Positions 43,928 to 59,104 of a stretch of 64,000 nucleotides of DNA are shown one piece after another. The notes beneath the pieces are model-generated. The model did no database searches. It was given only the letters and a program-made list of their open reading frames with translations, and was not told the origin of the DNA. The stretch covers positions 2,106 to 66,105 of IMG/VR virus record IMGVR_UViG_3300047496_000334. One strand, 5' to 3'. This stretch comes from a virus. Its lineage: Duplodnaviria; Caudoviricetes. The position numbers were made by a program, and so were the translations under genes. How positions within the stretch are numbered: position 1 is the stretch's first letter; each line of letters starts with the position of its first letter.

Positions 43928-44383
43928 ATGCTTGGCTTCACCGCAATATCGGAAGATCCCATTGATGCTCTGAATGCGAACATTCAGCAATCTATAGCTA
44001 CATGGATGGCATCAGCTTCATTTTCTGCCGCAGGAAAGCTTACAGAAAAAACCATTGCAACATGGTCCGGACACTCTGCATTCTCTGCGCAAGGAAAGGC
44101 ACTGGAAAAAGGCGTGGCAGCGTGGACAGCGTCCGGAACATTTAATCCCAAGGGGGCAATCGCAAGAAAGTCTCAAGCCACATGGCTTGCCCATACAACT
44201 TTTTTAAGTAAAAGCCCCTCACTCAGGGCAAGCAAAGTAAACTGGAAGTCTGGCATCGTCTTTCAGGCTGTCGGATCTTCCAAAATGGGGAAAATAGGCT
44301 ATCCATTCCCCGCTCAACATCTTCTTGGCGATCCATTTCCTAAAAAAATACGTCCACTTTACCAAAGAATGCGAATTCAATAA
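43928..44383 (+). CDS. structural protein with short internal repeats
   Basis: MLGF.AIS..PI N-terminus; repeated A.W.....F...G units. Confidence 0.65.
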   Translation: MLGFTAISEDPIDALNANIQQSIATWMASASFSAAGKLTEKTIATWSGHSAFSAQGKALEKGVAAWTASGTFNPKGAIARKSQATWLAHTTFLSKSPSLRASKVNWKSGIVFQAVGSSKMGKIGYPFPAQHLLGDPFPKKIRPLYQRMRIQ

Positions 44384-44616
44384 CCTGAAAGCACCTGGAC
44401 AAGAAAATTACGCTGATCCCGGCTTGCATGGCACCTGTTTTCATCATGTTGAAGCAATATTTCCAACTCAGACAAACGCTTTTTACATGCGACAACCTGC
44501 TCTGGGTCATTTTTTAAACGATCCATAAGGTCGCTACGCCCGAAAGGAGTTGTTAGGTAGAATTTCTGGTACAAATCCGACTTTTGATCGGGAACATTTA
44601 ATTTATTATATGCCAT
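44377..44616 (-). CDS. hypothetical protein
   Basis: 79 aa ORF. Confidence 0.45.
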   Translation of the reverse strand: MAYNKLNVPDQKSDLYQKFYLTTPFGRSDLMDRLKNDPEQVVACKKRLSELEILLQHDENRCHASRDQRNFLVQVLSGY

Positions 44617-44785
44617 AGTCAATCTTAGCTATAATTTTACCATCAACTTTTACTTTGTGGTTTTTATCAATATCATCTGACCACACTTCTATCTCGGCAG
44701 GAAGGGGATATTTCTCCCTATATTGTATAGCCAAGGTCAGTCGCATAATCTTTCTATCCTTTTCTTCACATTTGCTACACGTCAT
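44606..44785 (-). CDS. hypothetical protein
   Basis: 59 aa (MTCSKCEEKDRKIMRL...), overlaps terL stop, read manually. Confidence 0.45.
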   Translation of the reverse strand: MTCSKCEEKDRKIMRLTLAIQYREKYPLPAEIEVWSDDIDKNHKVKVDGKIIAKIDYGI

Positions 44786-46403
44786 AAATCGCCCCTTCCC
44801 TTGGTCTAAACTCTTTTATCTCTGTTTCTTCCTCATATTCATTTGTTCGCAATGCCCATCCGGTGTCACGCAGGAATTTAACTCCCTGGGTAAGCGCATC
44901 TGGCAGATCGTCATGCTTACCACGAGGGAAAATACTCATCTCATCAATACAAAGCTGCGCCCACCACCTGTCTGGTGCCGCTATTATACCATTTTCAAAT
45001 AAATTTGAAACAGCATGTACACGTGCGATCTTGTCGCCCTTCGGAGTAATACCCTGAACACCAAATTTTTCATTGCTATAAAGGCGTATTAGCTCCTGAA
45101 TAAGCGGTATGCCTGAAGCCGTCTTCTCCACAATAACCTTGTCAGCATGCATCTCGTGAGCCGTATAGGCGACAAGTTCGACAAGCCCCCATTCTTCACG
45201 GTCAAGATAATCCCTGCGCGATTCTCCCTTACGCCTTTCAGGAACTGCGCCATGAAAGCTCATTCGTTTTTGCCACGCATCCATAAGGATAATGCGCGGT
45301 TGCCCATCATCGCGGTACAGCCCCAGTACTACGCAGGCGGAATAGTCATTCGCACGCTTCTCAGTAAATGCCGGGTCAACTGATGCAATAATAAAATCCA
45401 TGACCGGATACTCAAGGGCGCGAAGCGGGTTGCCAGACTCATCAAATGCTTCACCCTGCTTAGGCCACATCTTCCACCACGATGATTTTATAATTCCGCC
45501 ACCACGCGGAGCAGGAGATTGCATATATTGTCCGGCATATGCATAACTGGACATTTCCTTATCAGATTTTAGCTTATCTACTGCAATCTGATTATAAACT
45601 TCTGGCCAAAGAAGTTCACCATCCTCTTCGCGCCAGTCTTCCCACCCTATTGATGTGATACATTTACGCCCTGAATCATATTCCATAGGGAGGCAAAGAT
45701 GCTCATACCCCATATCGCGTGACAATATAAGCCCGGAAACATCATCCTCATTGGAGCGCTGCTGAATGTTTACAAAAACAGATTCATTAGGATCAATAAC
45801 GCGGCTGGGAAGAACCTCCATATACCAGCGGTTTGTTTCATCACGCGTAGTTTTTGATTCGACATCTTTAATATTGTTAGCGTCATCAATTATAAGGCGG
45901 TTTCCGCGTTCGCCTGTGCCTGTACCGCCTACAGACGATGCAATTTTCCATCCTGTCCGGCTATTTTCCAGTTTTACCTGGTTATCTTTGGTAATTTCAA
46001 AAGAAGTACCCCAAAGCGTGCGATACAGATCTGATTTAACAAGTGTGCCAAAGCGCCCATTATCACGCTCTGTCAGGCTGGATGCATATGAAAATGTAAG
46101 ATAGCGTAAATGCGGTTTTTCTATCCACTCCCATGCAGGCCAGAAAACATTAACCACGATACTTTTGGCAAAGCCGGGGGGAATATTAATAAGCAATTTT
46201 CGTATCTCGCCGCGAGATACCGCTTCGAGATGTTCGCACATTGCGCGGATGTGGCGCGCCTCCCGAAACTCACGCCCCGGCTCCAGATACTCCCACATAA
46301 GTTTGATAAAATCATACAAGCTGCGCTCAGCACTTGCCTGATAAATAAGCCCCTTGGCAAGCATAGGATTCTGTTTAAACAGCGTTTCAATCGCTTTTGG
46401 CAT
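44775..46403 (-). CDS. terL: terminase large subunit
   Basis: INIPPGFAKS Walker A, TGERG..LIIDD Walker B, QQR...D, GQY.Q.P, S.D.A, DYSA, IVEK, FP.GKHDD..DA..Q. Confidence 0.93.
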   Translation of the reverse strand: MPKAIETLFKQNPMLAKGLIYQASAERSLYDFIKLMWEYLEPGREFREARHIRAMCEHLEAVSRGEIRKLLINIPPGFAKSIVVNVFWPAWEWIEKPHLRYLTFSYASSLTERDNGRFGTLVKSDLYRTLWGTSFEITKDNQVKLENSRTGWKIASSVGGTGTGERGNRLIIDDANNIKDVESKTTRDETNRWYMEVLPSRVIDPNESVFVNIQQRSNEDDVSGLILSRDMGYEHLCLPMEYDSGRKCITSIGWEDWREEDGELLWPEVYNQIAVDKLKSDKEMSSYAYAGQYMQSPAPRGGGIIKSSWWKMWPKQGEAFDESGNPLRALEYPVMDFIIASVDPAFTEKRANDYSACVVLGLYRDDGQPRIILMDAWQKRMSFHGAVPERRKGESRRDYLDREEWGLVELVAYTAHEMHADKVIVEKTASGIPLIQELIRLYSNEKFGVQGITPKGDKIARVHAVSNLFENGIIAAPDRWWAQLCIDEMSIFPRGKHDDLPDALTQGVKFLRDTGWALRTNEYEEETEIKEFRPREGAIYDV

Positions 46404-47148
46404 CCATGAATTCCTTGGCAGATTTCTTTGCCGCTATATAGGTTTCATCGGGTTCGGATTTGTCACCCATAACAGATTCCCAGTTACGCCATTCCTTATC
46501 CCACAGATCCTCATTGAGTCTAAACCAGTGATTGATTGGCCCCATGTCTGGCTCAGGCAAGCCTAATATTCCGCGTATTTTTTCAGCATGTGCAATACGC
46601 TCTGGACGCTTGGCAATAAAAAAATCCATCCAGAACCGCAAATCGCGCATACGCTTTGTCATTGGGTTTTTCTTTGCTATAAAACATGCAGCCTGAATGC
46701 CATAAATCGGCAAACCATGAACCAATGCAGATAATTCCTGCAGCCATGTATCGTCAAACCAGAATGGAAAATAATCTGTGTATAGCTGACCCGCGGCCGC
46801 CAGCCATTTGCGCGGGACGATAGGTATAACAGGGCCGATATTGGTGTTCCACCATACTACCCGCTCATCATCTTTGCTGTAAACATCTGCGATATGTAAA
46901 TCCCAGTGAGGGGTAATGCACACAGAGCGGTCAGTAACAAGCGCATAAATTTCTGACGGCTTAGCCTCATCTGCTATCGCATTCCAGATGGCGCCAAGGC
47001 TAGGGCGCAATTCATCGCTATGCAAAAACTCAATATCATTCTTACCGCTCGCCAACGCATCCAGAACGCTAAGGGCCGCCTGAAATCCAGTCGGGTTTCC
47101 GCGAGAAGCGCAAAGAACTGCTATCTTAAGTCGTCTTTTTTCTTCCAC
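46387..47148 (-). CDS. GT-A fold glycosyltransferase-like protein
   Basis: IAVLCASRGNP, WD, PIVPRKW....G, FPFWFDDTWL; resembles 54909-55661. Confidence 0.6.
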   Translation of the reverse strand: MEEKRRLKIAVLCASRGNPTGFQAALSVLDALASGKNDIEFLHSDELRPSLGAIWNAIADEAKPSEIYALVTDRSVCITPHWDLHIADVYSKDDERVVWWNTNIGPVIPIVPRKWLAAAGQLYTDYFPFWFDDTWLQELSALVHGLPIYGIQAACFIAKKNPMTKRMRDLRFWMDFFIAKRPERIAHAEKIRGILGLPEPDMGPINHWFRLNEDLWDKEWRNWESVMGDKSEPDETYIAAKKSAKEFMDAKSD

Positions 47149-48163
47149 TGCTCATTTCCCTGTCATTAAAGGCAATATAACGTTTTCCAGCAGATTCCCT
47201 ATTGGCTGCATACCACTCAATTGTCTCCTTAATGCCTTTTTCCAAATCATAAATCGGCTGATATCCATAATTTTGTGCACGGCTTATATCCATAAGGCGT
47301 CTTGCATCACCCTTTGGCTTATTTTTATCCCAAATAATCTCAACAGGACCGCCAGGCGCATTGCGCGCTACAATCTCCGCCACCTCTTTTATTGTCACCG
47401 GCTTTCCAGACGCAATATTAAGTGGTTTGGTTATACCCTGCTCAACAGCCATCATCATACCGCGCGCCACATCTTTCGCATGCACAAAATCACGTATTGC
47501 AGAGCCATCGCCCCATACAGTCAAAGGATTTTCCCCATTCACCACGCGCGCTATGAGTGATGGCAGCACCATGGCAGTGCTGGAATCAAACCAGTCATAT
47601 GGTCCGTATACATTAGCCGGTCGCACAATGGAGCATTTCCAATCATATTCTACCGCATAAGCATCTGCCTGCAATTCAGCCATGCGCTTTGCCCATCCCG
47701 CGAACCAGTCATTTGGCGATGGATTTCCTTTCCACATATCATCTTCATGAAAAACTTCTGCCGGAGGATAGACCCCAACAGTGCTGGTATGCAGATAATG
47801 CTTTACCCCGGCGCGCCGGGCCGCCTCCATCATATTGATAGAAGTCTGTATAGTTGGAACAAAAAAGGAGGCGGGATATTTTAATGTAGCAGATGGCGAT
47901 CCCTTGACCCCCACAAGATTAAAAACGATATCCATGCTTTTACACATATCCTCGCAGTTATTAAAGTAACGCAAATCACGGACAAAACTATCCCCCTCAC
48001 TGCCGCTTTTGTATCTAATCTTCATATCGGAATGAGAGCCATATTTATCCATCGAAATTATTCTCACTGAAGCCCCCTTATCAGCAAGCATTTCCACTAG
48101 CGGAGTTCCTATTAATCCGCTCCCCCCCGCAACCAAAACTTTTTTACCCCTATAGAAACTCAT
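47126..48163 (-). CDS. NAD(P)-dependent epimerase/reductase (GDP-fucose synthase/ColC-like)
   Basis: GGSGLIG, W.KR at the YxxxK position, RPANVYGPYD, WGDGS..RDF. Confidence 0.85.
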   Translation of the reverse strand: MSFYRGKKVLVAGGSGLIGTPLVEMLADKGASVRIISMDKYGSHSDMKIRYKSGSEGDSFVRDLRYFNNCEDMCKSMDIVFNLVGVKGSPSATLKYPASFFVPTIQTSINMMEAARRAGVKHYLHTSTVGVYPPAEVFHEDDMWKGNPSPNDWFAGWAKRMAELQADAYAVEYDWKCSIVRPANVYGPYDWFDSSTAMVLPSLIARVVNGENPLTVWGDGSAIRDFVHAKDVARGMMMAVEQGITKPLNIASGKPVTIKEVAEIVARNAPGGPVEIIWDKNKPKGDARRLMDISRAQNYGYQPIYDLEKGIKETIEWYAANRESAGKRYIAFNDREMSSGRKKTT

Positions 48164-49206
48164 ATACCCTCCTGAAGATGGTGAAAATCGCGCCTGTCGA
48201 ACTTGCCATAAAGATAATGTGCCGGATCTGAAAAAATTATGCCGGACCCTGCATTTTCAAACTTAAACGGAACCCAGAGAAGTTCTTTCAGCTCTTCAAG
48301 AATTCTGCCGTGATCTTCCAGTCGGGCAAAAATAAGAATAAATCCGCCGCCGCCCGCTCCTAATAATTTGCCGCCCTGCGCACCAGCTTTCAATGCGCGC
48401 TCATAAATGTCATCTACAAATGCAGGCGATATATTTTTAGCAAGTGTGCGTTTAATTTTCCACGATTCATGCAACAATTTTCCAAAATCATCAAGACTGC
48501 CGTTATGCAATAGCCTCAAAGCGTCATCCACCAGCGACTGCATCTCTTTAAGTTCAGCCTTTTTCTCTCCGCGCTCCTGAGATTTTATTTGTTCAGACGC
48601 AATATCAGAAGCTGTGCGGGAAACGCCTGTAAAAAAAAGAAGGCAGCGACGCTGTAGCTTATCAAGACGCGATGCGGGTAGCATTACCGGTTGCACGGAA
48701 AAATCACCATCTGGCGAAATGGTAGTCTTATTAAAGCCGCCATAAGAGGCTGCAATCTGATCCTGAATGCCGACATTCTCTTTTAAAACCTCTCGCTCAA
48801 TATAGATAGCCTCTTTAGCCAAATCATATTTATTCGTCATCCTGTCCTTCAACCCATGCAGAGCATTAAGCAGTCCCACTGTGAAGGTGGAACTTGAGCC
48901 AAGGCCTGACCGGGCAGGCAGATCGCCTGTATGATGAATTTCTACGCCATGATCGATATTAAGATGTTTAAGCACTTCACGAACTGAGGCGTGCTGAATA
49001 TCGCCGTGGCTAAGAACAGATTCAATTTGCGACCATACAATGCGGGATTTTTCAGGGAAAAAAGGAGGAAGATAGCGTACCGTTATATAGCAGTAATGAT
49101 TTATAGTCGTTGAAAGAACGCAGCCGCCATTTTCCTGATACCATGGGGCATAATCTGTGCCTCCTCCAAAAAAGGAAATACGGAATGGAGTCCTAGAAAT
49201 TATCAC
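48160..49206 (-). CDS. hddA: GHMP kinase, D-glycero-D-manno-heptose-7-phosphate kinase-like
   Basis: SRTPFRISFFGGGTD, DLPARSGLGSSS, G.QDQ.AA.YGG, GGKLLGAGGGGF; GTG start at 49206. Confidence 0.85.
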   Translation of the reverse strand: MIISRTPFRISFFGGGTDYAPWYQENGGCVLSTTINHYCYITVRYLPPFFPEKSRIVWSQIESVLSHGDIQHASVREVLKHLNIDHGVEIHHTGDLPARSGLGSSSTFTVGLLNALHGLKDRMTNKYDLAKEAIYIEREVLKENVGIQDQIAASYGGFNKTTISPDGDFSVQPVMLPASRLDKLQRRCLLFFTGVSRTASDIASEQIKSQERGEKKAELKEMQSLVDDALRLLHNGSLDDFGKLLHESWKIKRTLAKNISPAFVDDIYERALKAGAQGGKLLGAGGGGFILIFARLEDHGRILEELKELLWVPFKFENAGSGIIFSDPAHYLYGKFDRRDFHHLQEGI

Positions 49207-50125
49207 TATACCATCCCAAAGTTTTCTTGATACCATCAACCAATGATGTTTTTGGAGTCCACCCCAGATCAGATTCCGCCCGCTTGCAATCAAGCGATGT
49301 GCTGACCTGAATAGAGGGCTTGCTGGTATCGTAATTTATAGCAAGAGACTTGCCAGAGGCCACCACTATCTCCGTTACAATTTCCCTGATAGTAAAAGAC
49401 GTTCCATATCCGCAATTATACAGGCCAAATTTCGATTCCTGTTTATCAAGCGCACATTCTACAAAATCTACAAGGTCGTCAATATAACAAATGTCACGCG
49501 CTTCCGATCCATTGCCCCAGACATCAATATGATCCCCCGCCAGCTTCACCTTAGTTACAGTGGCTCCAAAAACATGGGCGCGGTCAAGCGCATATTTATC
49601 CCATGGGCCATAAAAATTGCTTCCGCGAATGGCCGTGAATTTTGTTTCGCCCTGATCCGCAAAAAAAGCTGCCATTTTTTCAAGATATAGTTTGGTACTT
49701 ACCATGCCGAAATAGCGTGAATTCGGATTAACAGGCGTTTCCTCGCTACAATGGCCGCCGCCATACATCGTCGAGCAACTGAACCAGATAACATGCTTCA
49801 CCTTACGCAGCATCGCCGCACGGAAAATGTAAGAATTCATCACCGCGTTGTCCGTAACATGCAGCCACGGGCGCTCAAAGGTGTCCTTGCACCCGGAAGT
49901 AACTGCCGCCGCCTGCACAACAATGTCCATGCCGTTAATCAGCGAATCCACCATAGCGTCATTGCAGGAATCAACATTGTACCATTCAATATGAGGATGG
50001 TCCCATGGCTGCCGCGTAAAAAAAGTAGCATAGACCTGATATTCAGGATTATCCGCAAAACGCTGTGCAATATTGCGACCTACAAAACCCGTTCCGCCAA
50101 ATATTAAAACCTTTTTCTTTTTCAT
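49193..50125 (-). CDS. second NAD(P)-dependent epimerase/reductase
   Basis: GGTGFVG, N.YGPWD, VWGNGSEARD. Confidence 0.85.
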   Translation of the reverse strand: MKKKKVLIFGGTGFVGRNIAQRFADNPEYQVYATFFTRQPWDHPHIEWYNVDSCNDAMVDSLINGMDIVVQAAAVTSGCKDTFERPWLHVTDNAVMNSYIFRAAMLRKVKHVIWFSCSTMYGGGHCSEETPVNPNSRYFGMVSTKLYLEKMAAFFADQGETKFTAIRGSNFYGPWDKYALDRAHVFGATVTKVKLAGDHIDVWGNGSEARDICYIDDLVDFVECALDKQESKFGLYNCGYGTSFTIREIVTEIVVASGKSLAINYDTSKPSIQVSTSLDCKRAESDLGWTPKTSLVDGIKKTLGWYSDNF

Positions 50126-50635
50126 TTAATAAACTTCCACTAAAATTGTTGATTCTTCGCAATCAAGTGCCGCCCTGTACTCCGGTAAAATCTGATCCGC
50201 TTTTTCGAGTTTTACCACTTTCACGGCAGATAGCATGGCACGCACAGCATCCGTATAATCACCAAGATGTTGAATGCCTGGATCAAGCGGGACAGGTGTC
50301 GCAATCGCGGTGCGGATGATGACCTTCGGCCTGTAATCGCTGAAAAGAGGTATTTTGTCCAGATGCTGCACAAGTTGCGACATGGCTTCCAGCATAAAAT
50401 TAATACGGGGAAAGATTGTGCACACTTTTCCGCCTGCCATCGCAATGCCTGTTGCCATGCCCATCTGCATATTTTCTGCGACAGGGATCTCCATGCGCTG
50501 ATTAATGGGAATGTCCGCAAGAGTTTTGCTCATAAATGTGCCATCGCAGGCCACGGCCTGCCCCATAAAAATATATCCATCATCGGCAAGAAGCTTCATT
50601 GCATCACATAATGCTTTCTCATATTCTGGTGTCAA
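50126..50635 (-). CDS. TPP-enzyme beta-like subunit (pyrimidine-binding domain only)
   Basis: F.GQ.V...G, E.PVAEN.Q.G.A.G.A..G, P..QH; 169 aa. Confidence 0.8.
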   Translation of the reverse strand: MTPEYEKALCDAMKLLADDGYIFMGQAVACDGTFMSKTLADIPINQRMEIPVAENMQMGMATGIAMAGGKVCTIFPRINFMLEAMSQLVQHLDKIPLFSDYRPKVIIRTAIATPVPLDPGIQHLGDYTDAVRAMLSAVKVVKLEKADQILPEYRAALDCEESTILVEVY

Positions 50636-51219
50636 AATTGAATTCGCCTCCCCGCGCCGCTATGGGGAAATGGCAAATCATATTTAAAATAATATTTCTC
50701 ACCCAGAGAATGGCAGAATGGCCGACCCCACACATCTGCTGTTTTAGTGCAAACACTTTTACCATTGTCTTCAATTACAATTTGCATGGGAAGCTTATTC
50801 CAATAAGCATAATTAGCACATTCATGCGCAAGTCCAGACATTCCCGCCATATCGCCAAGAAATAACCAAACCTTCTCACTTCCGCCACTTCGCTTAATCT
50901 GCCATGCCACCCCAAGCGCAATCGGACAACACCCTGCAAATATGGCGGAAGAAAAAAACCGGTGGTCCGGCCAGCATAACGTCATTGAGCGGCCAGCCAT
51001 AATAGCAATTTTGACCTTTTGAGCGGGTACGCCAGCCAGAAGCGCATGGTAATGAGAGCGCCAAGTAGAGAATACCCAATCACCTGGTTTAAAATCTTTA
51101 AAGATATTTATTAGTACATCCTCATTGTTTCCAGAAAGGTGAATGGGGGCTTTAATTTTTCCCGCGTTAAATTCTTCTGCTATGTCTTTTTCAAAGGCAA
51201 TCAGGTCTTTTTTATTCAT
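50632..51219 (-). CDS. TPP-enzyme alpha-like subunit (E1 dehydrogenase/transketolase family)
   Basis: PIHLS.N.E, TWRSHYH, GD.....G...E..N.A....LP...VIEDN TPP-binding motif, PH.GAG. Confidence 0.85.
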   Translation of the reverse strand: MNKKDLIAFEKDIAEEFNAGKIKAPIHLSGNNEDVLINIFKDFKPGDWVFSTWRSHYHALLAGVPAQKVKIAIMAGRSMTLCWPDHRFFSSAIFAGCCPIALGVAWQIKRSGGSEKVWLFLGDMAGMSGLAHECANYAYWNKLPMQIVIEDNGKSVCTKTADVWGRPFCHSLGEKYYFKYDLPFPHSGAGRRIQF

Positions 51220-51637
51220 ATGCCAACTTCCTTGCTACAGCCCATGCCATCTCTGTGCTGGATGCCCTTTTGCCGCCGCCGACATTGAACAATTCCGTTA
51301 TCCCTAAATCTTTGCACAATCCGGATTCAGAATTATTTTTAGTCTTGTCTGAGCGATCGCCGCCATTGGCAAAATAATCTGGCTTTATGGCACGTATCGC
51401 CTCGCACACCGAATCATCTTTATCGTCAACCGGCCATACTTCAGAAACAGAGCGCATCTCGCGCAGAATATCCGCGCGCTGCTTCCAGCCCATAAAGAAA
51501 AAATTCTTCTTGCGTATAAGCCAGTCATCAGAATTAAGTATAACGTAGACACGTCCATATTGCGCTGCTTCCCTGATATAATCCAGATGACCGGAATGAA
51601 CAGGATCGAACCCGCCGCTCACACATACTATTGCCAT
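51212..51637 (-). CDS. HxGH cytidylyl/adenylyltransferase
   Basis: SGGFDPVHSGH, LNSD.WL.RKK, FANGGDR, GG.K..SS. Confidence 0.85.
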   Translation of the reverse strand: MAIVCVSGGFDPVHSGHLDYIREAAQYGRVYVILNSDDWLIRKKNFFFMGWKQRADILREMRSVSEVWPVDDKDDSVCEAIRAIKPDYFANGGDRSDKTKNNSESGLCKDLGITELFNVGGGKRASSTEMAWAVARKLAYE

Positions 51638-52821
51638 GATGTCTCCGCCATGAAATCATCAAAACATTGTTCCACATACTCAACGGCAGTCTTGCCCATA
51701 TCCTGATGGCATCCAATGGCGAACCCATTACGCATTATCCTGTCGCAATTTTCAAGGCTGCCGTGAACCTCATGCCGGAACATTTTAAGCGCAGGCTGCC
51801 TTGCCATATTACCGGCAATAACAGGACGGGTTTCTACACCTTTTTTTTGCAAGAATGAGGTGATGGATTTTACAGTAAATTTGCAATTATCTTTAAGCAC
51901 AATTCCGAATCCGAACCAGCTACTATGGCCTAACTCAGTTTCTTCCTGAAATTGAAAAAATGCACTGTATTTATCCAGCGCATGGCGAAGCATCATCTGT
52001 GCATCGCGGCGCCTGTGCACAAAGCGGTCAAGTTTTGGCAATTGCTTCATACCAATAACCGCCTGCACCTCGGTAGGGCGAAGATTATAGCCGATATTGA
52101 CAAACAGAAAGCGCGGGTCGATATTACTGTGCTCCTGTTCATAAGCCTTGGGATTGTTTGATTCCCTTGACCAGCCATGCGCGCGCAAAATCCGCATCAG
52201 ATCGGCCATTTCATAACTATTGGTCAGGCAAATGCCACCCTCAAAAGTGGTGATGTGATGGGAAAAGTAAAAGCTCATAGTGTTGACAAGGCCAAAGCCT
52301 CCAACAAACTTATTATGATATTTAGCACCCATCGCTTCACAGCAGTCCTCAATGATAATAAGCCCGCGCCTGAGCGCAATCATGCGTATAGTATCCATGT
52401 CGCAGGGATTGCCGTACACATGCACCAGCATTATCGCTTTGGTTTTTGAAGTAATAGAATCTTCCAGCTTCTGAACATCGATATTGTAAGTTGCCAGATC
52501 GCAATCCACAAACACCGGAACCAGACCGCACTGGATAATAGGCCAGACCGTCGTGGCCCATGACAGGGCCGGAACAATTACATCATCGCCAGCCTTCAGA
52601 TTCCTGTTCCATGCCGGGTTAGTAATTGCTGCCAAGGCAAGTAAATTGGCAGAAGACCCCGAATTGCACATCACTGCGTATTTAACGCCAAAATACCTGG
52701 CGCATTGTTCCTCGAACTCGCGCACCTTTGGACCCATGGTCACGTGGGTCGTGCGCATCTGTTCGCAGGCAGCCTGAATTTCCTCTTCGCCAAACGTAGG
52801 TTCGTGGAGCCTTACCTTCAT
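51628..52821 (-). CDS. PLP-dependent DegT family, ColD-like 4-keto-6-deoxy sugar 3-dehydratase
   Basis: NSGSSANL, EDCCE, SFYFSHHITT.EGG (His where aminotransferases have Lys), GYNLRP. Confidence 0.8.
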   Translation of the reverse strand: MKVRLHEPTFGEEEIQAACEQMRTTHVTMGPKVREFEEQCARYFGVKYAVMCNSGSSANLLALAAITNPAWNRNLKAGDDVIVPALSWATTVWPIIQCGLVPVFVDCDLATYNIDVQKLEDSITSKTKAIMLVHVYGNPCDMDTIRMIALRRGLIIIEDCCEAMGAKYHNKFVGGFGLVNTMSFYFSHHITTFEGGICLTNSYEMADLMRILRAHGWSRESNNPKAYEQEHSNIDPRFLFVNIGYNLRPTEVQAVIGMKQLPKLDRFVHRRRDAQMMLRHALDKYSAFFQFQEETELGHSSWFGFGIVLKDNCKFTVKSITSFLQKKGVETRPVIAGNMARQPALKMFRHEVHGSLENCDRIMRNGFAIGCHQDMGKTAVEYVEQCFDDFMAETSWQ

Positions 52822-53837
52822 CGCGTTAAAAACCTTTCACCACTCATGGCTCTTTTCCTCCAGTATTCCAATAAATCTTGCATTGTTTGAGTAAAATGTA
52901 TTTCAGGCTTCCATCCTGTGTGATGAACAAATTTTTCAACGCATGGCACCTGATTGTCTGCATCAATGGGGCGTAGCCTATCTTTATCGACTTCAAATCT
53001 TAATGGAAGTCTTGCAAATCGCTTAGCAGATAATGATGTAAGATACTGTAGCATTTCTTCGATAGAGCAAGTGTAGTTTCCACCAATATTATACACTTCT
53101 CCGGCTTTTGGATTGACAGTAAGAAGCATATGATAAGCACGAACAGCATCACGCACGTCTGCATAAGTGCGTGTAGAATAAAGATTGCCCCCTTTTATGA
53201 CCGGATCAATTTGTCCAGATTCAATCATGGCAATCTGCTTGGCAAAGGAAGATTCGGCAAAGACATCGCCGCGACGGGGGCCGGTATGGGTAAACATACG
53301 CGTGACCATCACCGTCATGCCATACGCCTCAGCGTAATGACGGCCAATGAGGTCTGTTCCTACTTTAGAAATGGCGTAAGGACTGGCAGGATGAAAGTTG
53401 CAATCTTCCATTATCGGAGTCTTTTCCTTCGGAACTCTACCATACACTTCCGATGAACTGCACACATGGATAATCGCATCTTTTTTATACTGTCTCAGCG
53501 CTTCGAGAACGCGGTGCGTGCCGTTAATGTTAGTATCATACGTATCAAGTGCAGACGTGAAACTCGTTTTGGGATAACTCTGCGCAGCCAGATGGAATAC
53601 ATAATCAGGCTGAGAAGCCTTGACCACTTCGTTAATGGAATCCGAGTCGCGTAATTCACCGTAGACGAGTTTAATTCGTCCACCACTATTAATTTCGGGC
53701 AAAAGGTGCGAGATGTTGTCAAGGGGACTTCTCCATCTGCAGAGTCCATAAATATCCCAATCGGTGTGCTCTAAGAGGTAATCGGCTAAGTGGCTGCCGA
53801 CAAAGCCAGTGATGCCCGTAATTAAGCAGCGCGTCAT
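52818..53837 (-). CDS. GDP-sugar 4,6-dehydratase, WcbK/DmhA (heptose-type)-like
   Basis: LITGITGFVGSHLAD.LLE.TDW.IYGLCRWRSPLDN, LAAQSYPKTSF, YAISK, RMFTHTGPRRGDVF. Confidence 0.88.
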   Translation of the reverse strand: MTRCLITGITGFVGSHLADYLLEHTDWDIYGLCRWRSPLDNISHLLPEINSGGRIKLVYGELRDSDSINEVVKASQPDYVFHLAAQSYPKTSFTSALDTYDTNINGTHRVLEALRQYKKDAIIHVCSSSEVYGRVPKEKTPIMEDCNFHPASPYAISKVGTDLIGRHYAEAYGMTVMVTRMFTHTGPRRGDVFAESSFAKQIAMIESGQIDPVIKGGNLYSTRTYADVRDAVRAYHMLLTVNPKAGEVYNIGGNYTCSIEEMLQYLTSLSAKRFARLPLRFEVDKDRLRPIDADNQVPCVEKFVHHTGWKPEIHFTQTMQDLLEYWRKRAMSGERFLTR

Positions 53838-53992
53838 TTCCGCACCTCAGTAACCTGCGCCAAAAAGTCTTTCTGCTCCTGCGGCGTCAGAAGTTTACCC
53901 GTCCATATATTCCAGAGCAGCGTTGCAAAGACCAGCATGAGAACAAAAGTGGCGGAATTAAAGATGATAATCGCCGTCCTGATATGATTCAT
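53834..53992 (-). CDS. small membrane protein
   Basis: 52 aa with one TM (AIIIFNSATFVLMLVFATLLWNIW), ATGA coupled, read manually. Confidence 0.5.
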   Translation of the reverse strand: MNHIRTAIIIFNSATFVLMLVFATLLWNIWTGKLLTPQEQKDFLAQVTEVRK

Positions 53993-54012
53993 ATATTCAC
54001 CACTTTGCCCGA

Positions 54013-54912
54013 TTATTGTATATACAACTTCCGCTTCAGAAAATCAACCGTCATTTTACCGTTGTTCCGCGCTTCCTGAACTTCATCCATTAATTTGTCA
54101 AAAACAGGTTTTTCGGCGGTATAGTGATAAAATCCACCTTCGCCAATCCACACATCAACGCCGTTATGGTGGTATACCCATGCGCGCGGGCACAGGCGCA
54201 TCTTTCCACCCATGGCTTCTGCCATGTAGTAAAGGAATGATTCGGTAAAGCAGTTTCTGAATAAATCCATGTAGCCGCCATATTCCAGAAAGAAGTCATA
54301 ACGGAAGATAATGGCGTAAGCGTTCAGGCAGGGGGCGCGCGCCGCAGCCATACCAACACAATCCATGTAATCAGCGGGATCTATTAAGTCCCTGTTGTCC
54401 GGCCCTGCCGCCACCTGTATGGGGATAGCCATGTCGCCGCGATTGACCGTTGGAAAGAGAATCTGCAGTTTGGGGTCTTTTTCAAATTCCTTAACGGCCT
54501 CTGCCACCCAGTCCATCGGCCAGATGATATCGGATGACGTATAAACAATATACCGGGTGTCTCCCGCGGCGTAACGGCGGAGAATATCATTCATCAGTTC
54601 CCATTGAGACATTTTATCAGGATAAAAACAAAGTTCATAACCGCCCGCATTTTTATGGTGCCGCGCTAACGTGGAGCGCACAATGTCAGAAGATTTTGCA
54701 TCGCCAACGACCAGCTGAATGTCAGGGCGCGAACCAATGATCGAATCAATCGCGTCCATATAAACATAAGGCCTGGTCCTGCTTCCCTCTCCCAGTGTGT
54801 TGATGCGATCAGATATCTGCTGAAGCGTAAGTCTGTCAGGCGGCCTTCCGTTTGAGGGCTCTTCTGCAGCATCAGGAGCATAGGTTGGCATGAATGCTAA
54901 TATTTTACTCAC
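54013..54912 (-). CDS. GT2-like glycosyltransferase
   Basis: AFMPTY, VVGD..S, YIVYTSSD, GGY...F.....E, V.H; GTG start coupled to upstream stop. Confidence 0.7.
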   Translation of the reverse strand: MSKILAFMPTYAPDAAEEPSNGRPPDRLTLQQISDRINTLGEGSRTRPYVYMDAIDSIIGSRPDIQLVVGDAKSSDIVRSTLARHHKNAGGYELCFYPDKMSQWELMNDILRRYAAGDTRYIVYTSSDIIWPMDWVAEAVKEFEKDPKLQILFPTVNRGDMAIPIQVAAGPDNRDLIDPADYMDCVGMAAARAPCLNAYAIIFRYDFFLEYGGYMDLFRNCFTESFLYYMAEAMGGKMRLCPRAWVYHHNGVDVWIGEGGFYHYTAEKPVFDKLMDEVQEARNNGKMTVDFLKRKLYIQ

Positions 54913-55661
54913 CTGTTCCCCCTTATGGCCAGAGCCAGCGCTCCGGAATTCATCCATGCCATGTTCTGCATATGATCGCTGAACAGCGCAGATTCCATAC
55001 GGCGAATCTGCCATTTCCTTGTCCCGTTCCACCGCTCGTCATCTCCCTGTTCATCGGGGCCGCGTTTTATATCCAGCGGGCAAAAGGTGCGGTACTCCGC
55101 TTTATTTATTTTAAATCCGCGCTCCAGGTTATAACACAACAGCCCCGTCCATCCGTCCGTATTAAAACTATAGCCGAATCCGGCGACAGATATCCATTCG
55201 CGGTTCCATGCCGGATAGGTATCCACATGCCCTATACATGAACCATTCGACAGGGTTGCCGTATCGATGTCAGACACGGTATTGATAATATGCGGCCATC
55301 CCTTGTGTCTGACCGCTATGTTCAGAAGTTTTTCATCCCACCCTTTCGTGCCGATAATGGCGTCATCCGACATCACCATAAATAATCCGGACTCCTGCGA
55401 TGCCTCACGCATTAAATCCATGTATGCCTTATGCAGGTCAGCATATCCTCCCGCGCGCGGCGTAACTATCGTTTTTACTGAAACAGGGTAATCAATTCCG
55501 CCCCTGGCGAGCGGGTGATCCTTATCATCATCGTCCGTCTTAACCAGTATTTCAATACTGCGTGGACAGGATGAATTCTCAAGCAGCGAATCCATAAATT
55601 CCATAAACTTCATGTTAAGATTCCCCCTGAGTCTGCTGGCCATGAGAACAGATAATTTCAT
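54909..55661 (-). CDS. GT-A fold glycosyltransferase-like protein
   Basis: LSVLMASR, EILVK.DDDD, MSDD......GWD, D.W. Confidence 0.7.
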   Translation of the reverse strand: MKLSVLMASRLRGNLNMKFMEFMDSLLENSSCPRSIEILVKTDDDDKDHPLARGGIDYPVSVKTIVTPRAGGYADLHKAYMDLMREASQESGLFMVMSDDAIIGTKGWDEKLLNIAVRHKGWPHIINTVSDIDTATLSNGSCIGHVDTYPAWNREWISVAGFGYSFNTDGWTGLLCYNLERGFKINKAEYRTFCPLDIKRGPDEQGDDERWNGTRKWQIRRMESALFSDHMQNMAWMNSGALALAIRGNR

Positions 55662-56374
55662 TCCGCATGCCTCTGCCTTGGCAGCGCATCCGGCAACTGG
55701 GCGTAAGGCTCACGGTTCCACAGCCGGAAATTATACCCCAGATCGCCCCAATGCTGCGTGTTGTTGGAAATCCCGTGGTCCACAAAGATGCGAACGCCTG
55801 CCGCGCGTATCTTATCGGTAAAGTAACGGTCCTCACCCTGATAGGCACGGTGAACGTCGTTCCATACGATTTCAAAATGCGGCGATGGCAATCCGCGCAG
55901 CTTATCCAGCTTTACCAGCATCAGTCCCATCCCCACCTTCGCCACTTCCTCCAGACCAATCTTCCCCGCCGAATGCGTCATATGACCGTCCAGGCCTTCC
56001 GCCGTATATTGCAGCGTATCCTGCTTGCGGCAGTAATTGGCCGCGATAGCATCGATTTCAGGATGCTCCTTCATCGCCTGCAACATGCGAAGCACGCAAT
56101 CCGACGGCATCTCGATATCATCATCCCACCAGAGTTGGTGCGTACATTCATCCGCCAGAGCCTCATCCAGACATTCCTGCCGCGCCTGGGGCAGAAGGCT
56201 TGCCTGCAGCCTGCAGATAAGGCCAAAGGGGACTCCAAAGGCAGTGAGATGGTGCACCATCATCGACAGGCCCAGTGAGCAGCGCGGGGTTATGGGGCGG
56301 TTGGAACAAACCGAAATTGCCAGCTTTAACCCTTTAGCGCCCTCATACTGCTTTATTGCTATCGGCTCTTTCAT
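55658..56374 (-). CDS. GT-A fold glycosyltransferase-like protein
   Basis: SLLP.AR, TH.LWWDDDI (DxD), G.G.ML, F.........GED.YF, I.VD. Confidence 0.75.
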   Translation of the reverse strand: MKEPIAIKQYEGAKGLKLAISVCSNRPITPRCSLGLSMMVHHLTAFGVPFGLICRLQASLLPQARQECLDEALADECTHQLWWDDDIEMPSDCVLRMLQAMKEHPEIDAIAANYCRKQDTLQYTAEGLDGHMTHSAGKIGLEEVAKVGMGLMLVKLDKLRGLPSPHFEIVWNDVHRAYQGEDRYFTDKIRAAGVRIFVDHGISNNTQHWGDLGYNFRLWNREPYAQLPDALPRQRHAE

Positions 56375-56437
56375 CAAAAATCCTTCATCTCGTAAACCAC
56401 ATAAAAACGGCGATTAAAATACACAGGACTATTATGG

Positions 56438-56638
56438 TCATTTCCATATCCTGGTGCGCCATTCCCCGCACCATTCTTTTTCGTCCATATTGGGGCTCGC
56501 CGACACCGGCCTTGGCGCAGGAGGATTGCCGATGGGTGCGATGATAACTACCGGGGGGAAGCGACGGCAGAAGCCTTCGGTCACGTTCTGCAGGTGACGG
56601 CGGAAGTAAGTGCAGGTGGCACAGGATTCGGTGGTCAT
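56438..56638 (-). CDS. small Cys-rich phage protein
   Basis: CATC.YF....G.CRR.PP ... WCGEW. Confidence 0.7.
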   Translation of the reverse strand: MTTESCATCTYFRRHLQNVTEGFCRRFPPVVIIAPIGNPPAPRPVSASPNMDEKEWCGEWRTRIWK

Positions 56639-56823
56639 TTTAAGGCATCTTCCGCTTTTTTTATTTCCTCTTTGGCAAATTGCTTCCAATCCTCGCCATT
56701 ACTAGCCTTCACATGGATATTGGAAATCATCGTATCAAACCCTTTCTTATTCGCCGTAGTATCGGGGATTTTAGAGAGATACCATGGGAGAAGCAAATCG
56801 CGTATATATCCTTTTTTTATCAT
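56635..56823 (-). CDS. hypothetical protein
   Basis: 62 aa, ATGA coupled on both sides. Confidence 0.55.
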   Translation of the reverse strand: MIKKGYIRDLLLPWYLSKIPDTTANKKGFDTMISNIHVKASNGEDWKQFAKEEIKKAEDALK

Positions 56824-56972
56824 TTATCCTTCTCCATGAAATCACGTAAAATCTGGTTGACGAGCGATTGCCACCCCCTTCCCTTTTTGCGAAAAAAGGC
56901 GAGGATCGCCGCGTCAATCCGTATGGATATAGCCTGCTTGCCAAACAGAATCTTAGCGGGTTTACGCGCCAT
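56820..56972 (-). CDS. BrnA-family antitoxin-like ribbon-helix-helix protein (orphan)
   Basis: 50 aa read manually: KQAISIRIDAAILAFFRKKGRGWQSLVNQILR matches the K..ISIR.D......F...G.GWQ...N..LR pattern. Confidence 0.75.
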   Translation of the reverse strand: MARKPAKILFGKQAISIRIDAAILAFFRKKGRGWQSLVNQILRDFMEKDK

Positions 56973-57145
56973 TATTTCTTTTTTTGCCCCGGCTTTTTCT
57001 GCTCTGGCTTTTTCTTCGCAGCCTTCGCGGTTTTCACAATGGAAGCCTTCACCGAAACCACCGGCCTGGCCGCTTTTGCCTTACCCTTTTCCGACGCCGG
57101 ACTTTTTTTCTTTTCCCTTGCCGGTTTATCTTTCGCCTTACCCAT
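56972..57145 (-). CDS. very basic Lys/Ala-rich histone-H1-like peptide
   Basis: 57 aa read manually (MGKAKDKPAREKKKSPASEKGKAKAARP...KKPGQKKK), AGGAG RBS, TAATG coupled. Confidence 0.65.
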   Translation of the reverse strand: MGKAKDKPAREKKKSPASEKGKAKAARPVVSVKASIVKTAKAAKKKPEQKKPGQKKK

Positions 57146-57161
57146 AACTATCTCCTGTCCG

Positions 57162-57200
57162 ATTGTTAAATAAAATTGTTAAATAAAATTGTTAAATAAA
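57162..57200. repeat. 13-bp tandem repeat x3
   Basis: ATTGTTAAATAAA three perfect copies, intergenic. Confidence 0.95.
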
Positions 57201-57203
57201 ATA

Positions 57204-58324: not shown

Positions 58325-58849
58325 TTACTCGTTGTCAATAACCCCATTGTCAATAACCAATGGCTCTTGTTTGTTTTCCAATATCTGTTTGATTGCCAGC
58401 AGATCATTCTTACTCATGTCACGCAGCTCCTTCATGGCATTCTGCAGCACCACGTTTACCGTGGTTTCCTGTTTGCTTTCCTGCTTGTCAGACTGGCCCA
58501 AGAACTGCTTTCCAAGCCAGATGAGCATGCCGGGATGACCACTGAGCGCCAGTCTGGCTTGCTTTGAACGCAGCGAGTGTTTGAAGTCGGCAATACCATT
58601 GAGTATAGCCTCATTAATATCAAAGTAATCGGCAATGGCGACATTAAACCAATCCACGTCAACACCCAGCAAATGCGCTATTTCTTCACGGGTGCAACCC
58701 ACCTGGCTCCATGCACGTATTTTTTTGAGGTCCAAAGCATTCGCGCGTTGGGAAGTGGTGTCACGCTTTCGCTTCGCCCGGAACCTTGGATTAAGCTTCG
58801 GAACATACGGATTGCCCTTTGGTTTTATGTCTGGGATGTCTTCCATCAT
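58325..58849 (-). CDS. terS: terminase small subunit
   Basis: HTH GCTREEIAHLLGVD, then LR..Q..LAL.G...MLIWLGKQ.LGQ.D signature. Confidence 0.75.
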   Translation of the reverse strand: MMEDIPDIKPKGNPYVPKLNPRFRAKRKRDTTSQRANALDLKKIRAWSQVGCTREEIAHLLGVDVDWFNVAIADYFDINEAILNGIADFKHSLRSKQARLALSGHPGMLIWLGKQFLGQSDKQESKQETTVNVVLQNAMKELRDMSKNDLLAIKQILENKQEPLVIDNGVIDNE

Positions 58850-59104
58850 TCTAATCAGCATATTAACATCAAATAACACCTCATGCAATTATATCAATGC
58901 CAAGCCCCTTAATTTACCCGTACAGCATAGCTTACCGCCAATCATCATCAACATCATCAAAAAACATAAAAACTTCTATACGAAACCCTATCATGCTAAT
59001 TTATGTCCCTGCCTATACGTCCTTAGCAATAATGTTATAAATCAGCATATTATTATTTTGTCCACCATATGTCACAACATAAAATATGGCTAATTACAAT
59101 TTAA

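What the first reader, a model, noticed from the sequence alone, without database searches (positions are those of the whole stretch)
46387..56374. Nucleotide-sugar biosynthesis and glycosyltransferase operon between terS and terL: candidate virion glycosylation system
Seen: twelve co-oriented, mostly overlapping genes (three GT-A, small TM, 4,6-dehydratase, PLP 3-dehydratase, HxGH nucleotidyltransferase, TPP alpha/beta pair, reductase, heptose kinase, reductase) followed by a fourth GT-like gene that overlaps the terL start. No flippase, Wzy, GtrAB or undecaprenyl-P transferase, and no base hydroxymethylase or phage polymerase. Known: serotype conversion needs membrane enzymes, DNA glycosylation usually needs a modified base, and virion glycosylation is described for some actinophages and giant viruses. 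Inference: a late cytoplasmic pathway that makes its own rare sugar and attaches it to Ser/Thr-rich virion proteins, as a shield or host-surface mimic.
Basis: partly seen in the sequence, partly recalled or inferred. Interest (0 to 1): 0.9.

Follow-up and report, generated by a model that had tools for sequence, protein, structure and literature searches.

The report
Phage head-module rare-heptose glycosylation cassette
An uncultured phage carries, just before its DNA-packaging gene, enzymes to make an unusual seven-carbon deoxy sugar plus four soluble sugar-transferring enzymes, and relatives of those transferases sit beside capsid genes in many other phages, so it probably sugar-coats its own particle, though no sugar has been measured.

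Summary
Thirteen tightly packed minus-strand genes (56377 to 46387) run into terL. They encode four GT-A glycosyltransferases, a 52-aa one-helix protein, a heptose-type 4,6-dehydratase, a ColD-type PLP 3-dehydratase with the catalytic His, an HxGH nucleotidyltransferase, a miniature E1-like ThDP alpha/beta pair, two SDRs and an HddA/WcbL-like kinase. An independent metagenome study assembles the same junctions, so this is not a chimera.

The likely product is an NDP-3,6-dideoxyheptose, possibly C-branched. The acceptor is unproven. New indirect support for virion proteins:
- The GT next to terL belongs to an un-Pfam'd family. In 64 of 80 viral loci it lies on the same strand as recognisable head or packaging genes, and in 33 the major capsid gene is the nearest one upstream.
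- Only 14 of 80 control sugar-gene loci showed such neighbours.
- All 7 loci with the same ColD+ThDP cassette lie in head or packaging regions, five of them in T7-like phages.

No polytopic membrane protein, integrase, ThyA homologue or C5-methylase was found. No acceptor motif was found either. Remodelling of the host envelope, the usual published reading, remains a serious rival.

This scan has noted similar capsid-linked heptose/GT cassettes on other DNA. Verdict: new variant of a known kind.

The parts
58325..58888 (-). Candidate small terminase subunit (weak call)
   Evidence: phrog_309 E 1.8e-4. A 58%-identical homologue sits upstream of GT1 in relative L166.
55658..56377 (-). GT1: GT-A fold glycosyltransferase (phrog_1574 family). 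The start is probably the ATG at 56374.
   Evidence: PF00535 19.6 bits, below cut-off; phrog_1574 3.9e-11. AF2 pLDDT 85.7. VIA Z 21.2 to STIV A197, 2c0n. Invariant D85 and D87. Start.
54909..55661 (-). GT2: diverged paralogue of GT4
   Evidence: No Pfam match. Hits a GT4-family HMM built without it at E 6.2e-10, 29 bits.
54013..55032 (-). GT3: GT2-family glycosyltransferase. The likely start is the GTG at 54912, which overlaps the GT2 stop.
   Evidence: PF00535 18.5 bits, below cut-off. The L002 orthologue (67% identity) scores 26.8 bits, above cut-off. Start analysis.
53834..53992 (-). 52-aa protein with one hydrophobic helix; function unknown
   Evidence: Translation. No Pfam or PHROG match. 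No homologue in the related loci.
52818..53837 (-). NDP-heptose 4,6-dehydratase
   Evidence: PF16363 254 bits. PDB 7us5, a GDP-D-glycero-D-manno-heptose 4,6-dehydratase, 321 bits; GDP-mannose dehydratases score 111-127 bits.
51628..52821 (-). PLP/PMP-dependent 3-dehydratase (ColD/RfbH type)
   Evidence: DegT 323 bits. RfbH model 369 bits, cut-off 423. ColD 2gms 298 bits, with S-H-H aligned on the ColD catalytic His; the mutant entries 3b8x and 2r0t mark that position.
51212..51637 (-). HxGH nucleotidyltransferase (cytidylyltransferase-like, RfaE-domain-II-like)
   Evidence: PF01467 44 bits; TIGR02199 44 bits, far below cut-off. HSGH motif.
50632..51219 (-). Miniature ThDP enzyme, alpha (PP-domain) subunit
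   Evidence: PF00676 38 bits; TIGR03182 72 bits. Large family of about 195-aa proteins.
50126..50635 (-). Miniature ThDP enzyme, beta (Pyr-domain) subunit
   Evidence: PF02779 19.8 bits, below cut-off. The L003 orthologue scores 30.5 bits. It follows the alpha subunit in 73 of the 80 viral loci and 78 of the 80 bacterial loci examined.
49193..50125 (-). Extended SDR 1 (reductase or epimerase; specificity unknown)
   Evidence: PF01370 133 bits. Best PDB matches are generic, 74 bits.
48160..49293 (-). GHMP sugar-1-kinase of HddA/WcbL type. The likely start is the GTG at 49206.
   Evidence: GHMP N and C domains. HddA model 146 bits, cut-off 600. WcbL 4usk/4usm and 3k85, about 140 bits. Start.
47126..48163 (-). 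Extended SDR 2, GDP-fucose-synthase-like (epimerase/reductase type)
   Evidence: PF01370 159 bits. Fcl model 140 bits. PDB GDP-L-fucose synthase 112 bits.
46387..47148 (-). GT4: GT-A glycosyltransferase of a family with no Pfam model that is linked to head modules. It overlaps the terL start.
   Evidence: AF2 pLDDT 94.6. Foldseek finds GT-A enzymes. Family size. Synteny.
44775..46403 (-). Large terminase subunit
   Evidence: phrog_38 8.1e-85; PF17289.

Best explanation
This is a late-expressed, purely cytoplasmic glycosylation system of a probably virulent tailed phage from moss-associated metagenomes. Its most likely acceptor is a virion (head) protein.

Inferred pathway:
1. Host heptose 7-phosphate is phosphorylated at C1 by the HddA/WcbL-like kinase. 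A host GmhB-type phosphatase is assumed for the next step.
2. The HxGH nucleotidyltransferase activates the sugar.
3. The heptose-type 4,6-dehydratase dehydrates it.
4. The ColD-type enzyme removes the 3-OH, giving an NDP-4-keto-3,6-dideoxyheptose.
5. The miniature E1-like ThDP pair then probably adds a pyruvate-derived two-carbon branch at C4, following yersiniose/AviB logic.
6. The two SDRs reduce or epimerise the product.

Four soluble GT-A enzymes build a short glycan. GT1, GT3 and GT4 are the lineage core. GT2 and the sugar pathway are the add-on.

Shown here: gene identities, folds, catalytic motifs, operon position, synteny across phages, and assembly integrity.
Inferred: the sugar structure, the nucleotide carrier, the timing of expression and, above all, the acceptor.
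For: Enzyme assignments.

Pathway logic in print:
- The GDP-3,6-dideoxyheptose route of C. jejuni uses a 4,6-dehydratase, a PLP C3-dehydratase, an epimerase and a reductase (PMC10440746, abstract).
- ThDP branching acts on a 4-keto-3,6-dideoxy sugar (YerE; PMC9306805, passages).
- E1-like pairs AviB1/B2 and Pau11/12 are proposed to install a C4 acetyl branch (PMC4753412, passages).

Operon: the genes overlap through to terL.

Slot conservation: L002 and L166 have GT1-GT3-GT4-terL. L003 has 3DH-TPPa-TPPb-SDR-SDR-GT4-terL.

Head-module linkage of the GT4 family:
- 64 of 80 IMG/VR loci have a head or packaging homologue in the flank of up to 6 kb, always on the same strand.
- In 33 loci the MCP is the nearest upstream head gene. 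In 7 the GT lies between portal and MCP, in 5 between terL and portal, and in 4 upstream of terL.
- 37 of 80 also carry a GT1-family gene.

Control: 14 of 80 ThDP-alpha loci have such neighbours. These include all 7 loci of the ColD type, against 7 of the 73 others.

T7-like context: the portal family PF12236 is present in 4 of 5 further ColD-type records. L009 has the cassette between portal and capsid genes.

Other points:
- No polytopic membrane ORF and no integrases.
- No ThyA homologue, C5-methylase or family-A polymerase.
- An independent study's contigs bridge GT4/terL and SDR1-to-terS at about 2-3% divergence.
- The nearest structure to GT1 is STIV A197.
Against: - No acceptor signature was found: no Ser/Thr runs, no NxS/T excess and no C-terminal Gly-Ser tails in 25 structural-region proteins.
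- In this lineage GT4 is next to terL, not next to the capsid gene.
- A GT-A fold does not identify the acceptor. The top matches include teichoic-acid and polysaccharide GTs.
- 3,6-dideoxy and branched sugars are known only from LPS, capsules and antibiotics.
- Bacterial homologues of the ThDP/kinase module sit in surface-glycan clusters with a WecA-like gene.
- Auxiliary genes can also sit in late regions of podoviruses (recalled, not tested).
- The record is 86% complete, so missing genes cannot be excluded.
- Homologues of GT1, GT4 and TPPa share a 276-kb contig that I could not open.
- The ThDP pair often neighbours a SIS isomerase in bacteria and in phage P-TIM68. It may therefore act on sugar phosphates rather than as a branching enzyme.
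- The 16 of 80 GT4-family loci without a head hit could not be classified.
Confidence: 0.5

Rival explanations
1. Host-envelope remodelling. The soluble GTs add the phage-made sugar to host LPS core, O-unit or capsule intermediates at the cytoplasmic face, and host transporters export them. This would block superinfection or stop progeny adsorbing to debris. If relatives are temperate, it would be serotype conversion.
For: - The sugar classes involved are known from LPS and capsules (PMC10440746 abstract; PMC4753412 passages).
- The bacterial ThDP/kinase/aminotransferase module lies in a glycan cluster with a WecA-like transferase, GT2 and an EamA transporter. It is widespread in bacteria: 245 of 367 pattern-matching stretches in the genome collection encode a relative.
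- Published readings of cyanophage GT and epimerase clusters favour host cell-wall modification (PMC12801897 passages).
- Cultured cyanophage P-TIM68 has a related cluster away from obvious head genes.
- A 276-kb contig holds GT1, GT4 and TPPa homologues and may be a prophage.
Against: - No integrase, resolvase or rve transposase was found.
- No membrane protein was found.
- This reading does not explain why the GT4 and GT1 families sit on the coding strand of head modules in 64 of 80 loci, against 14 of 80 control loci.
- It also does not explain why all 7 ColD-type cassettes lie in head or packaging regions.
- GT4 has no match in 50,697 GenBank phage records, so no known seroconverting phage carries it.
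Confidence: 0.25
2. DNA hypermodification. The GTs glycosylate phage DNA just before packaging, which would explain the position next to the terminase.
For: - Phage GT-A enzymes do glycosylate DNA, and group transfer happens late, leading up to packaging (PMC13326640 abstract; bioRxiv 10.1101/2023.12.21.572611, search listing and start of abstract).
- A TET-associated GT appears among the weak BFVD fold matches (rank 37).
- The cassette adjoins terL.
Against: - Described routes need a hydroxylated base made by a ThyA homologue or by a methyltransferase plus TET.
- No PF00303 or PF00145 match was found in the record. The Tet_JBP search was blank, but its control was silent too, so that result is uninformative.
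- No family-A polymerase was found. Replication genes are a primase-helicase, AAA_24, DUF669 and a helicase.
- The capsid-gene adjacency of the GT4 family is not expected for DNA GTs.
Confidence: 0.07
3. Another acceptor. The glycan goes on a host protein, or on a small molecule or soluble oligosaccharide, and the head-module position reflects only a tolerated insertion hotspot.
For: - The slot upstream of terL is variable: L002 and L166 carry three GTs, while L003 and the window add the sugar genes.
- An independent population shows replaced segments nearby.
- No acceptor motif was found.
Against: A mere hotspot does not explain the recurrence of the same two GT families next to three different capsid-protein families (phrog_283, phrog_9953 and the T7-like PF20911 type).
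Confidence: 0.12

Closest known systems
Mycobacteriophage virion glycosylation (Freeman et al. 2023). I know it only through citing passages in PMC12619734 and PMC12801897; the paper itself is not held.
   Same: Phage-encoded glycosyltransferases are thought to decorate capsid and tail proteins in the cytoplasm, without membrane machinery.
   Different: In that system the glycans are at the C-termini of the capsid and tail-tube subunits of actinophages (passage). Here no such tails were seen. The host is unknown and probably Gram-negative. The phage also makes its own rare sugar. Homology to the Che8-type GTs was not tested.
GDP-3,6-dideoxyheptose pathway of Campylobacter jejuni HS:5/HS:11 (PMC10440746, abstract)
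   Same: It has a heptose 4,6-dehydratase, a PLP C3-dehydratase and SDR reductase logic, with an HddA-type kinase supplying the heptose. The best PDB match of the dehydratase is the C. jejuni-type enzyme 7us5.
   Different: The cassette has no RmlC-type C5-epimerase gene. Its nucleotidyltransferase is of the HxGH cytidylyltransferase family, not the HddC type. It has an extra ThDP pair. It sits in a phage, not in a capsule locus.
ThDP-dependent C-branching of 4-keto-3,6-dideoxy sugars: YerE/YerF (yersiniose A) and the E1-like pairs AviB1/AviB2 and Pau11/Pau12 (PMC9306805, PMC4753412; passages)
   Same: A ThDP enzyme is encoded together with 4,6- and 3-dehydratases and a reductase. The two-subunit E1-like architecture resembles AviB1/B2.
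   Different: YerE is a single-chain flavoprotein. The subunits here are miniature (195 and 169 aa) with no close solved structure. Direct homology to AviB1/B2 was not tested. The substrate would be a heptose.
Self-encoded glycosylation in giant viruses and STIV (A197)
   Same: These are viral GT-A enzymes, and in giant viruses also viral nucleotide-sugar pathways. GT1's best structural match is STIV A197, followed by mimivirus R699. GT4's best BFVD match is a mimivirus GT2.
   Different: The hosts are eukaryotic or archaeal. Sequence identity is 10-18%. That STIV's capsid protein is glycosylated is recalled, not checked here.
Cyanophage 'cell-wall synthesis and modification' clusters (e.g. 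P-TIM68, S-SM2; PMC12801897)
   Same: They contain a ThDP enzyme about 40% identical to TPPa, with a kinase, nucleotidyltransferases, epimerases and GTs.
   Different: The ThDP enzyme is fused. A phosphoheptose isomerase is present. There is no ColD-type dehydratase. The clusters lie in a T4-like genome island. The published interpretation is host-surface modification.

Membership tests
GT-A fold glycosyltransferases (GT2-like) | Rossmann-like GT-A fold | tested here: met
   GT4 model has pLDDT 94.6. Foldseek matches GT-A enzymes at E 1.6e-5 in PDB and 2.7e-10 in BFVD. GT1 model has pLDDT 85.7 and matches 2c0n at Z 21.2.
GT-A fold glycosyltransferases (GT2-like) | Acidic DXD-type metal/nucleotide motif | tested here: met
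   GT1 has invariant D85 and D87. GT4 has invariant D73, D83 and D133, and distant members have DD at the D73 position. GT3 and GT2 were not examined residue by residue.
GDP-3,6-dideoxyheptose pathway (C. jejuni type) | Heptose-specific 4,6-dehydratase | tested here: met
   7us5 scores 321 bits; GDP-mannose dehydratases score 111-127 bits.
GDP-3,6-dideoxyheptose pathway (C. jejuni type) | PLP C3-dehydratase with His in place of the Schiff-base Lys | tested here: met
   S-H-H aligns with the ColD catalytic His.
GDP-3,6-dideoxyheptose pathway (C. jejuni type) | Separate C5 epimerase and HddC-type guanylyltransferase; GmhA and GmhB | tested here: not met
   None of the 13 cassette genes matches these families. 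The nucleotidyltransferase is of the cytidylyltransferase-like family. The rest of the record was not scanned for them.
YerE-type branching enzyme | Single-chain ThDP flavoenzyme | tested here: not met
   Two short E1-like subunits are present instead.
AviB1/AviB2-type E1-like branching pair | Alpha/beta E1-like ThDP subunits in a deoxysugar cluster | tested here: met
   E1_dh and Transket_pyr subunits lie between the dehydratases and the SDRs. Whether E2 or E3 genes exist elsewhere in the record was not scanned for.
AviB1/AviB2-type E1-like branching pair | Sequence homology to AviB1/B2 and carboligase activity | not tested
   No AviB sequence was available from a tool. Activity needs an assay.
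Gtr-type or Wzx/Wzy-dependent serotype conversion | Polytopic membrane proteins (GtrA/B/C, flippase, polymerase) and an integrase | tested here: not met
   No ORF has 4 or more hydrophobic segments. No PF00589, PF00239 or PF00665 match. The record is 86% complete.
Phage DNA glycosylation systems | Enzyme that makes a hydroxylated base (ThyA homologue, or C5-methyltransferase plus TET) | tested here: not met
   PF00303 and PF00145 are absent. The Tet_JBP search is uninformative because its control was silent.
Phage virion glycosylation (Che8 type) | Glycans demonstrated on virion proteins | not testable with these tools
   This needs glycostaining or MS of virions.
Phage virion glycosylation (Che8 type) | Acceptor tails at the C-termini of capsid and tail-tube proteins | tested here: not met
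   The C-termini of 25 structural-region proteins show no shared tail. The definition of the motif is second-hand.

The most novel reading that the evidence does not exclude
A phage-specific pair of GT-A families (GT4 type and GT1 type) forms a widespread capsid-glycosylation module in uncultured tailed phages. In this phage the pair installs a nine-carbon, C4-branched 3,6-dideoxyheptose that has not been described. The sugar would be made by a miniature two-subunit ThDP carboligase, and the cassette would be exchanged between unrelated phage lineages as a head-module unit.
Probability: 0.3. Interest if true: 0.85.

Novelty: new variant of a known kind. Interest (0 to 1): 0.65.

Why it matters
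Virion glycosylation is documented for actinophages and for giant and archaeal viruses. Sugar genes in other phages are usually filed as host-metabolism or host-surface genes.

The linkage found here turns that question into a testable rule. Two GT families without Pfam models sit beside capsid, portal or terminase genes in most viral loci that hold them. A complete rare-heptose pathway travels with head modules.

If virions are the acceptor, many environmental phages would carry glycan coats of their own making. That would bear on adsorption, particle stability, predation and immune recognition.

The miniature ThDP pair would also be a compact new carboligase for branched sugars.

Tried and rejected
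- Megablast of the 11.6-kb region against GenBank phages found no match. GT4 by tblastn against the same collection found no match.
- The sigma-70 promoter and terminator scans were uninformative: 41 promoter-like sites against 33.9 ± 5.5 in shuffles, and 25 terminator-like sites against 16 ± 4.
- The acceptor-motif hunt (S/T windows, NxS/T counts, C-terminal tails) found nothing.
- I first labelled the 342-aa protein at 37825-38853 as the capsid protein. It has no Pfam or PHROG match. The Mu gpT-like protein at 34690-35598 is the better capsid call.
- GT1 and GT3 show no pairwise similarity to each other.
- The first hhalign of GT2 against A2 was circular, because A2 contained GT2. I redid it with an HMM built without GT2.
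- No RNA holder was listed among the sequencing runs.
- Alignment A4 was too diverse for a locus scan. I replaced it with A5.
- The Tet_JBP search had a silent control.
- The protein Atlas gave only generic GT-like clusters.
- I did not run complex prediction. An enzyme-substrate pair with an unknown acceptor did not meet the tool's criteria.
- I did not use the listing of cluster members or a metagenome-contig scan.
- The Freeman et al. paper is not held. Supplements were not consulted.

Full report
**What the window is.** The window is bases 2106-66105 of a 66,105-bp IMG/VR virus record. The record is classed linear and CheckV estimates it 86% complete. It has no tRNA and no near relative among 50,697 GenBank phage records. 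Its terL is at most 38% identical to any cultured phage. A long minus-strand unit runs from about 59.4 kb down through a weak terS candidate, small ORFs, the cassette, terL, portal (phrog_1216), a Mu gpT-like capsid protein (34690-35598, PF10124 28.3 bits) and the tail genes. The plus-strand early genes encode AAA_24, DUF669 and an SF2 helicase. A primase-helicase lies on the minus strand at 4272-6518.

**The observation.** Thirteen minus-strand genes between 56377 and 46387 abut or overlap, and the last overlaps the terL start by 17 nt.
- The core enzymes are clear. The 4,6-dehydratase matches the GDP-D-glycero-D-manno-heptose 4,6-dehydratase 7us5 at 321 bits, while GDP-mannose dehydratases score 111-127 bits.
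- The DegT-family protein matches ColD (298 bits) and E1 (274 bits). It keeps the His that replaces the Schiff-base Lys. The position is marked by the ColD mutant entries in the same output.
- The kinase is closest to the heptose kinases WcbL and HddA.
- The 141-aa nucleotidyltransferase carries H-S-G-H.
- The two ThDP subunits are a PP domain and a Pyr domain of 195 and 169 aa, with only remote E1 similarity.
- SDR2 is GDP-fucose-synthase-like. SDR1 is generic.
- GT1 and GT4 are GT-A folds by modelling. GT3 is supported through its orthologue. GT2 is a distant paralogue of GT4.
- The negative part of the observation also holds for this record. There is no polytopic membrane ORF, and no integrase, resolvase or rve. 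There is no ThyA homologue, C5-methylase or family-A polymerase.

**Not an assembly artefact.** Contigs from an independent study (runs X5 and X6, 2-3% diverged) bridge 43919-47888, which spans terL, GT4 and SDR2. They also bridge 49662-58790, which runs from SDR1 through all upstream genes into terS. A 61-kb contig in a possible source run covers everything. Relatives from other metagenomes keep GT4 directly before terL.

**What it makes.** The set reproduces the published route to GDP-3,6-dideoxyheptoses (PMC10440746, abstract). It lacks the separate epimerase, uses a different nucleotidyltransferase family and has an added ThDP pair. A 4-keto-3,6-dideoxy sugar is exactly the acceptor of the ThDP enzyme YerE in yersiniose synthesis (PMC9306805, passages). 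E1-like pairs are proposed to do the same job in avilamycin and paulomycin (PMC4753412, passages). I therefore favour a C4-branched 3,6-dideoxyheptose.

This step is inferred. In bacteria (80 loci examined of 245 relatives) the pair sits in a conserved GHMP-(SDR)-TPPa-TPPb-DegT module. The DegT there is only 30-36% identical to ours, and none reaches 40%. In a Pelagibacteraceae locus, and in cyanophage P-TIM68, a SIS/phosphoheptose isomerase is adjacent. A transketolase-like role on sugar phosphates therefore stays open.

**Where the sugar goes.** Nothing in the window names the acceptor. The structural proteins show no Ser/Thr runs, sequon excess or shared tails. The comparative data are more telling.
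1. The lineage core is GT1-GT3-GT4-terL (L002, L166). The window and L003 add the sugar genes between GT3 and GT4.
2. The GT4 family has no Pfam model. A word-index search finds 51 members. An exhaustive profile search finds 297 cluster representatives at E ≤ 1e-30, 1607 at ≤ 1e-10 and 4657 at ≤ 1e-3.
3. In a first set of 22 IMG/VR loci (15 clusters at 70% identity), GT4 homologues lie directly after a major head gene in 14 loci. They lie between portal and scaffold/capsid in 1 and before terL in 3. Two more lie between terL and portal: L185, and L184 from the later panel search. The remaining two sit near a virion structural protein (L175) and a head-protein gene (L182).
4. In a second, wider set (146 of 170 pattern-matching stretches encode a relative; the best 80 were kept), 64 of 80 have a homologue of one of my 16 annotated head or packaging proteins in the flank of up to 6 kb. 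It is always on the same strand. In 33 the capsid gene is the nearest upstream head gene. 37 of 80 also hold a GT1-family gene. The 16 loci without a hit could not be classified with this limited panel.
5. As a control, the same panel hits only 14 of 80 ThDP-alpha loci, although their flanks are longer.
6. Those 14 include all 7 loci whose DegT is ColD-like (52-72% identity: L004, L005, L006, L008, L009, L045, L049), against 7 of the other 73. Four of five further records of that type have T7-like portals. In L009 the cassette lies between portal and scaffold/capsid genes. In L049 it lies about 4 kb after the capsid gene, and in L045 just before a tail protein.

So the same cassette (60-73% protein identity in the closest copies) has been placed in the head or packaging regions of at least two unrelated phage types.

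**Weighing the readings.** These patterns are what a capsid-directed modification system would show, and a host-metabolic gene would not obviously show them. They remain circumstantial. Soluble GTs could still act on host lipid-linked intermediates. The published reading of comparable cyanophage clusters is host-surface modification (PMC12801897). DNA glycosylation is unlikely, because every described route starts from a base hydroxylated by a ThyA homologue or by a methyltransferase plus TET (PMC13326640 abstract; bioRxiv 2023.12.21.572611, search listing and start of abstract), and none was found. I put virion glycosylation at 0.5, host-envelope remodelling at 0.25, DNA at 0.07 and other acceptors at 0.12.

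**Novelty.** Virion glycosylation, 3,6-dideoxyheptose synthesis and ThDP sugar branching are each known. Three things are new: their combination in a tailed phage, the head-module-locked GT4 and GT1 families, and the miniature ThDP pair in this context. My literature searches found no paper describing a phage-encoded dideoxy or branched heptose pathway, or these GT families. Earlier unchecked notes of this scan describe similar capsid-linked heptose/GT cassettes in other uncultured phages, so the theme recurs in this scan.

Noticed in passing
window 47886-49666: Contigs of two different runs (X3 and the independent X5) both break at about 47887 and about 49664, and an identical loose end is seen at 49688 in X1 and X5. 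The segment holds the GHMP kinase flanked by the two paralogous SDR genes. Relative L003 has SDR1 directly followed by SDR2, with neither a kinase there nor a nucleotidyltransferase between the 3-dehydratase and TPPa. This suggests presence/absence variation of the kinase within populations.
   Followed up: partly
window 42830-44383 (+ strand): A tail-fibre-like gene (phrog_11518, 2e-27) and a 151-aa gene lie on the opposite strand between terL and portal. In the independent run X5, 778 bases (43140-43919) are replaced by 502 other bases. This may be a swappable host-range module.
   Followed up: no
window 53417-53733 and 57586-57752: In run X5 a 315-base stretch inside the 4,6-dehydratase gene has the same length but is diverged. 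A 165-base stretch among the small ORFs between terS and GT1 is replaced by 632 bases. Both point to mosaic exchange within the cassette region.
   Followed up: no
L174 9728-9988 and homologues in about 20 loci (e.g. L188-L190, L193-L195, L199, L204): A conserved Ala/Thr/Gly/Ser-rich protein of about 86 aa is encoded between the major head gene and the GT4-family gene in one large group of phages, and is duplicated in L169. It is a candidate decoration protein or glycan acceptor. It is absent from the window.
   Followed up: partly
L084-L163 (bacterial genomes), e.g. L085 9416-13307: A conserved bacterial module, (SIS)-TPPa-TPPb-GHMP kinase-DegT aminotransferase, often with an SDR, occurs in Pelagibacteraceae, Nitrospira, Verrucomicrobiota, Burkholderiales and Prochlorococcus surface-glycan regions. 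Its product is apparently uncharacterised.
   Followed up: partly
L186 (Prochlorococcus phage P-TIM68, record 159.7-176.3 kb): This cultured cyanomyophage has a cluster of GTs, a fused ThDP enzyme about 41% identical to TPPa, a sugar kinase, two nucleotidyltransferases, a phosphoheptose isomerase and epimerases. It is a culturable system in which to test what such modules do.
   Followed up: no
window 37825-38853: A 342-aa head-module protein is conserved (62-67%) in all three relatives but has no Pfam or PHROG match. It is not the capsid protein, and its role is unknown.
   Followed up: no
L182 9647-11254: Here the GT4-family domain is part of a 535-aa protein next to a 2113-aa protein and a head protein/endolysin-like 831-aa protein. 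This is a fused form of the family.
   Followed up: no
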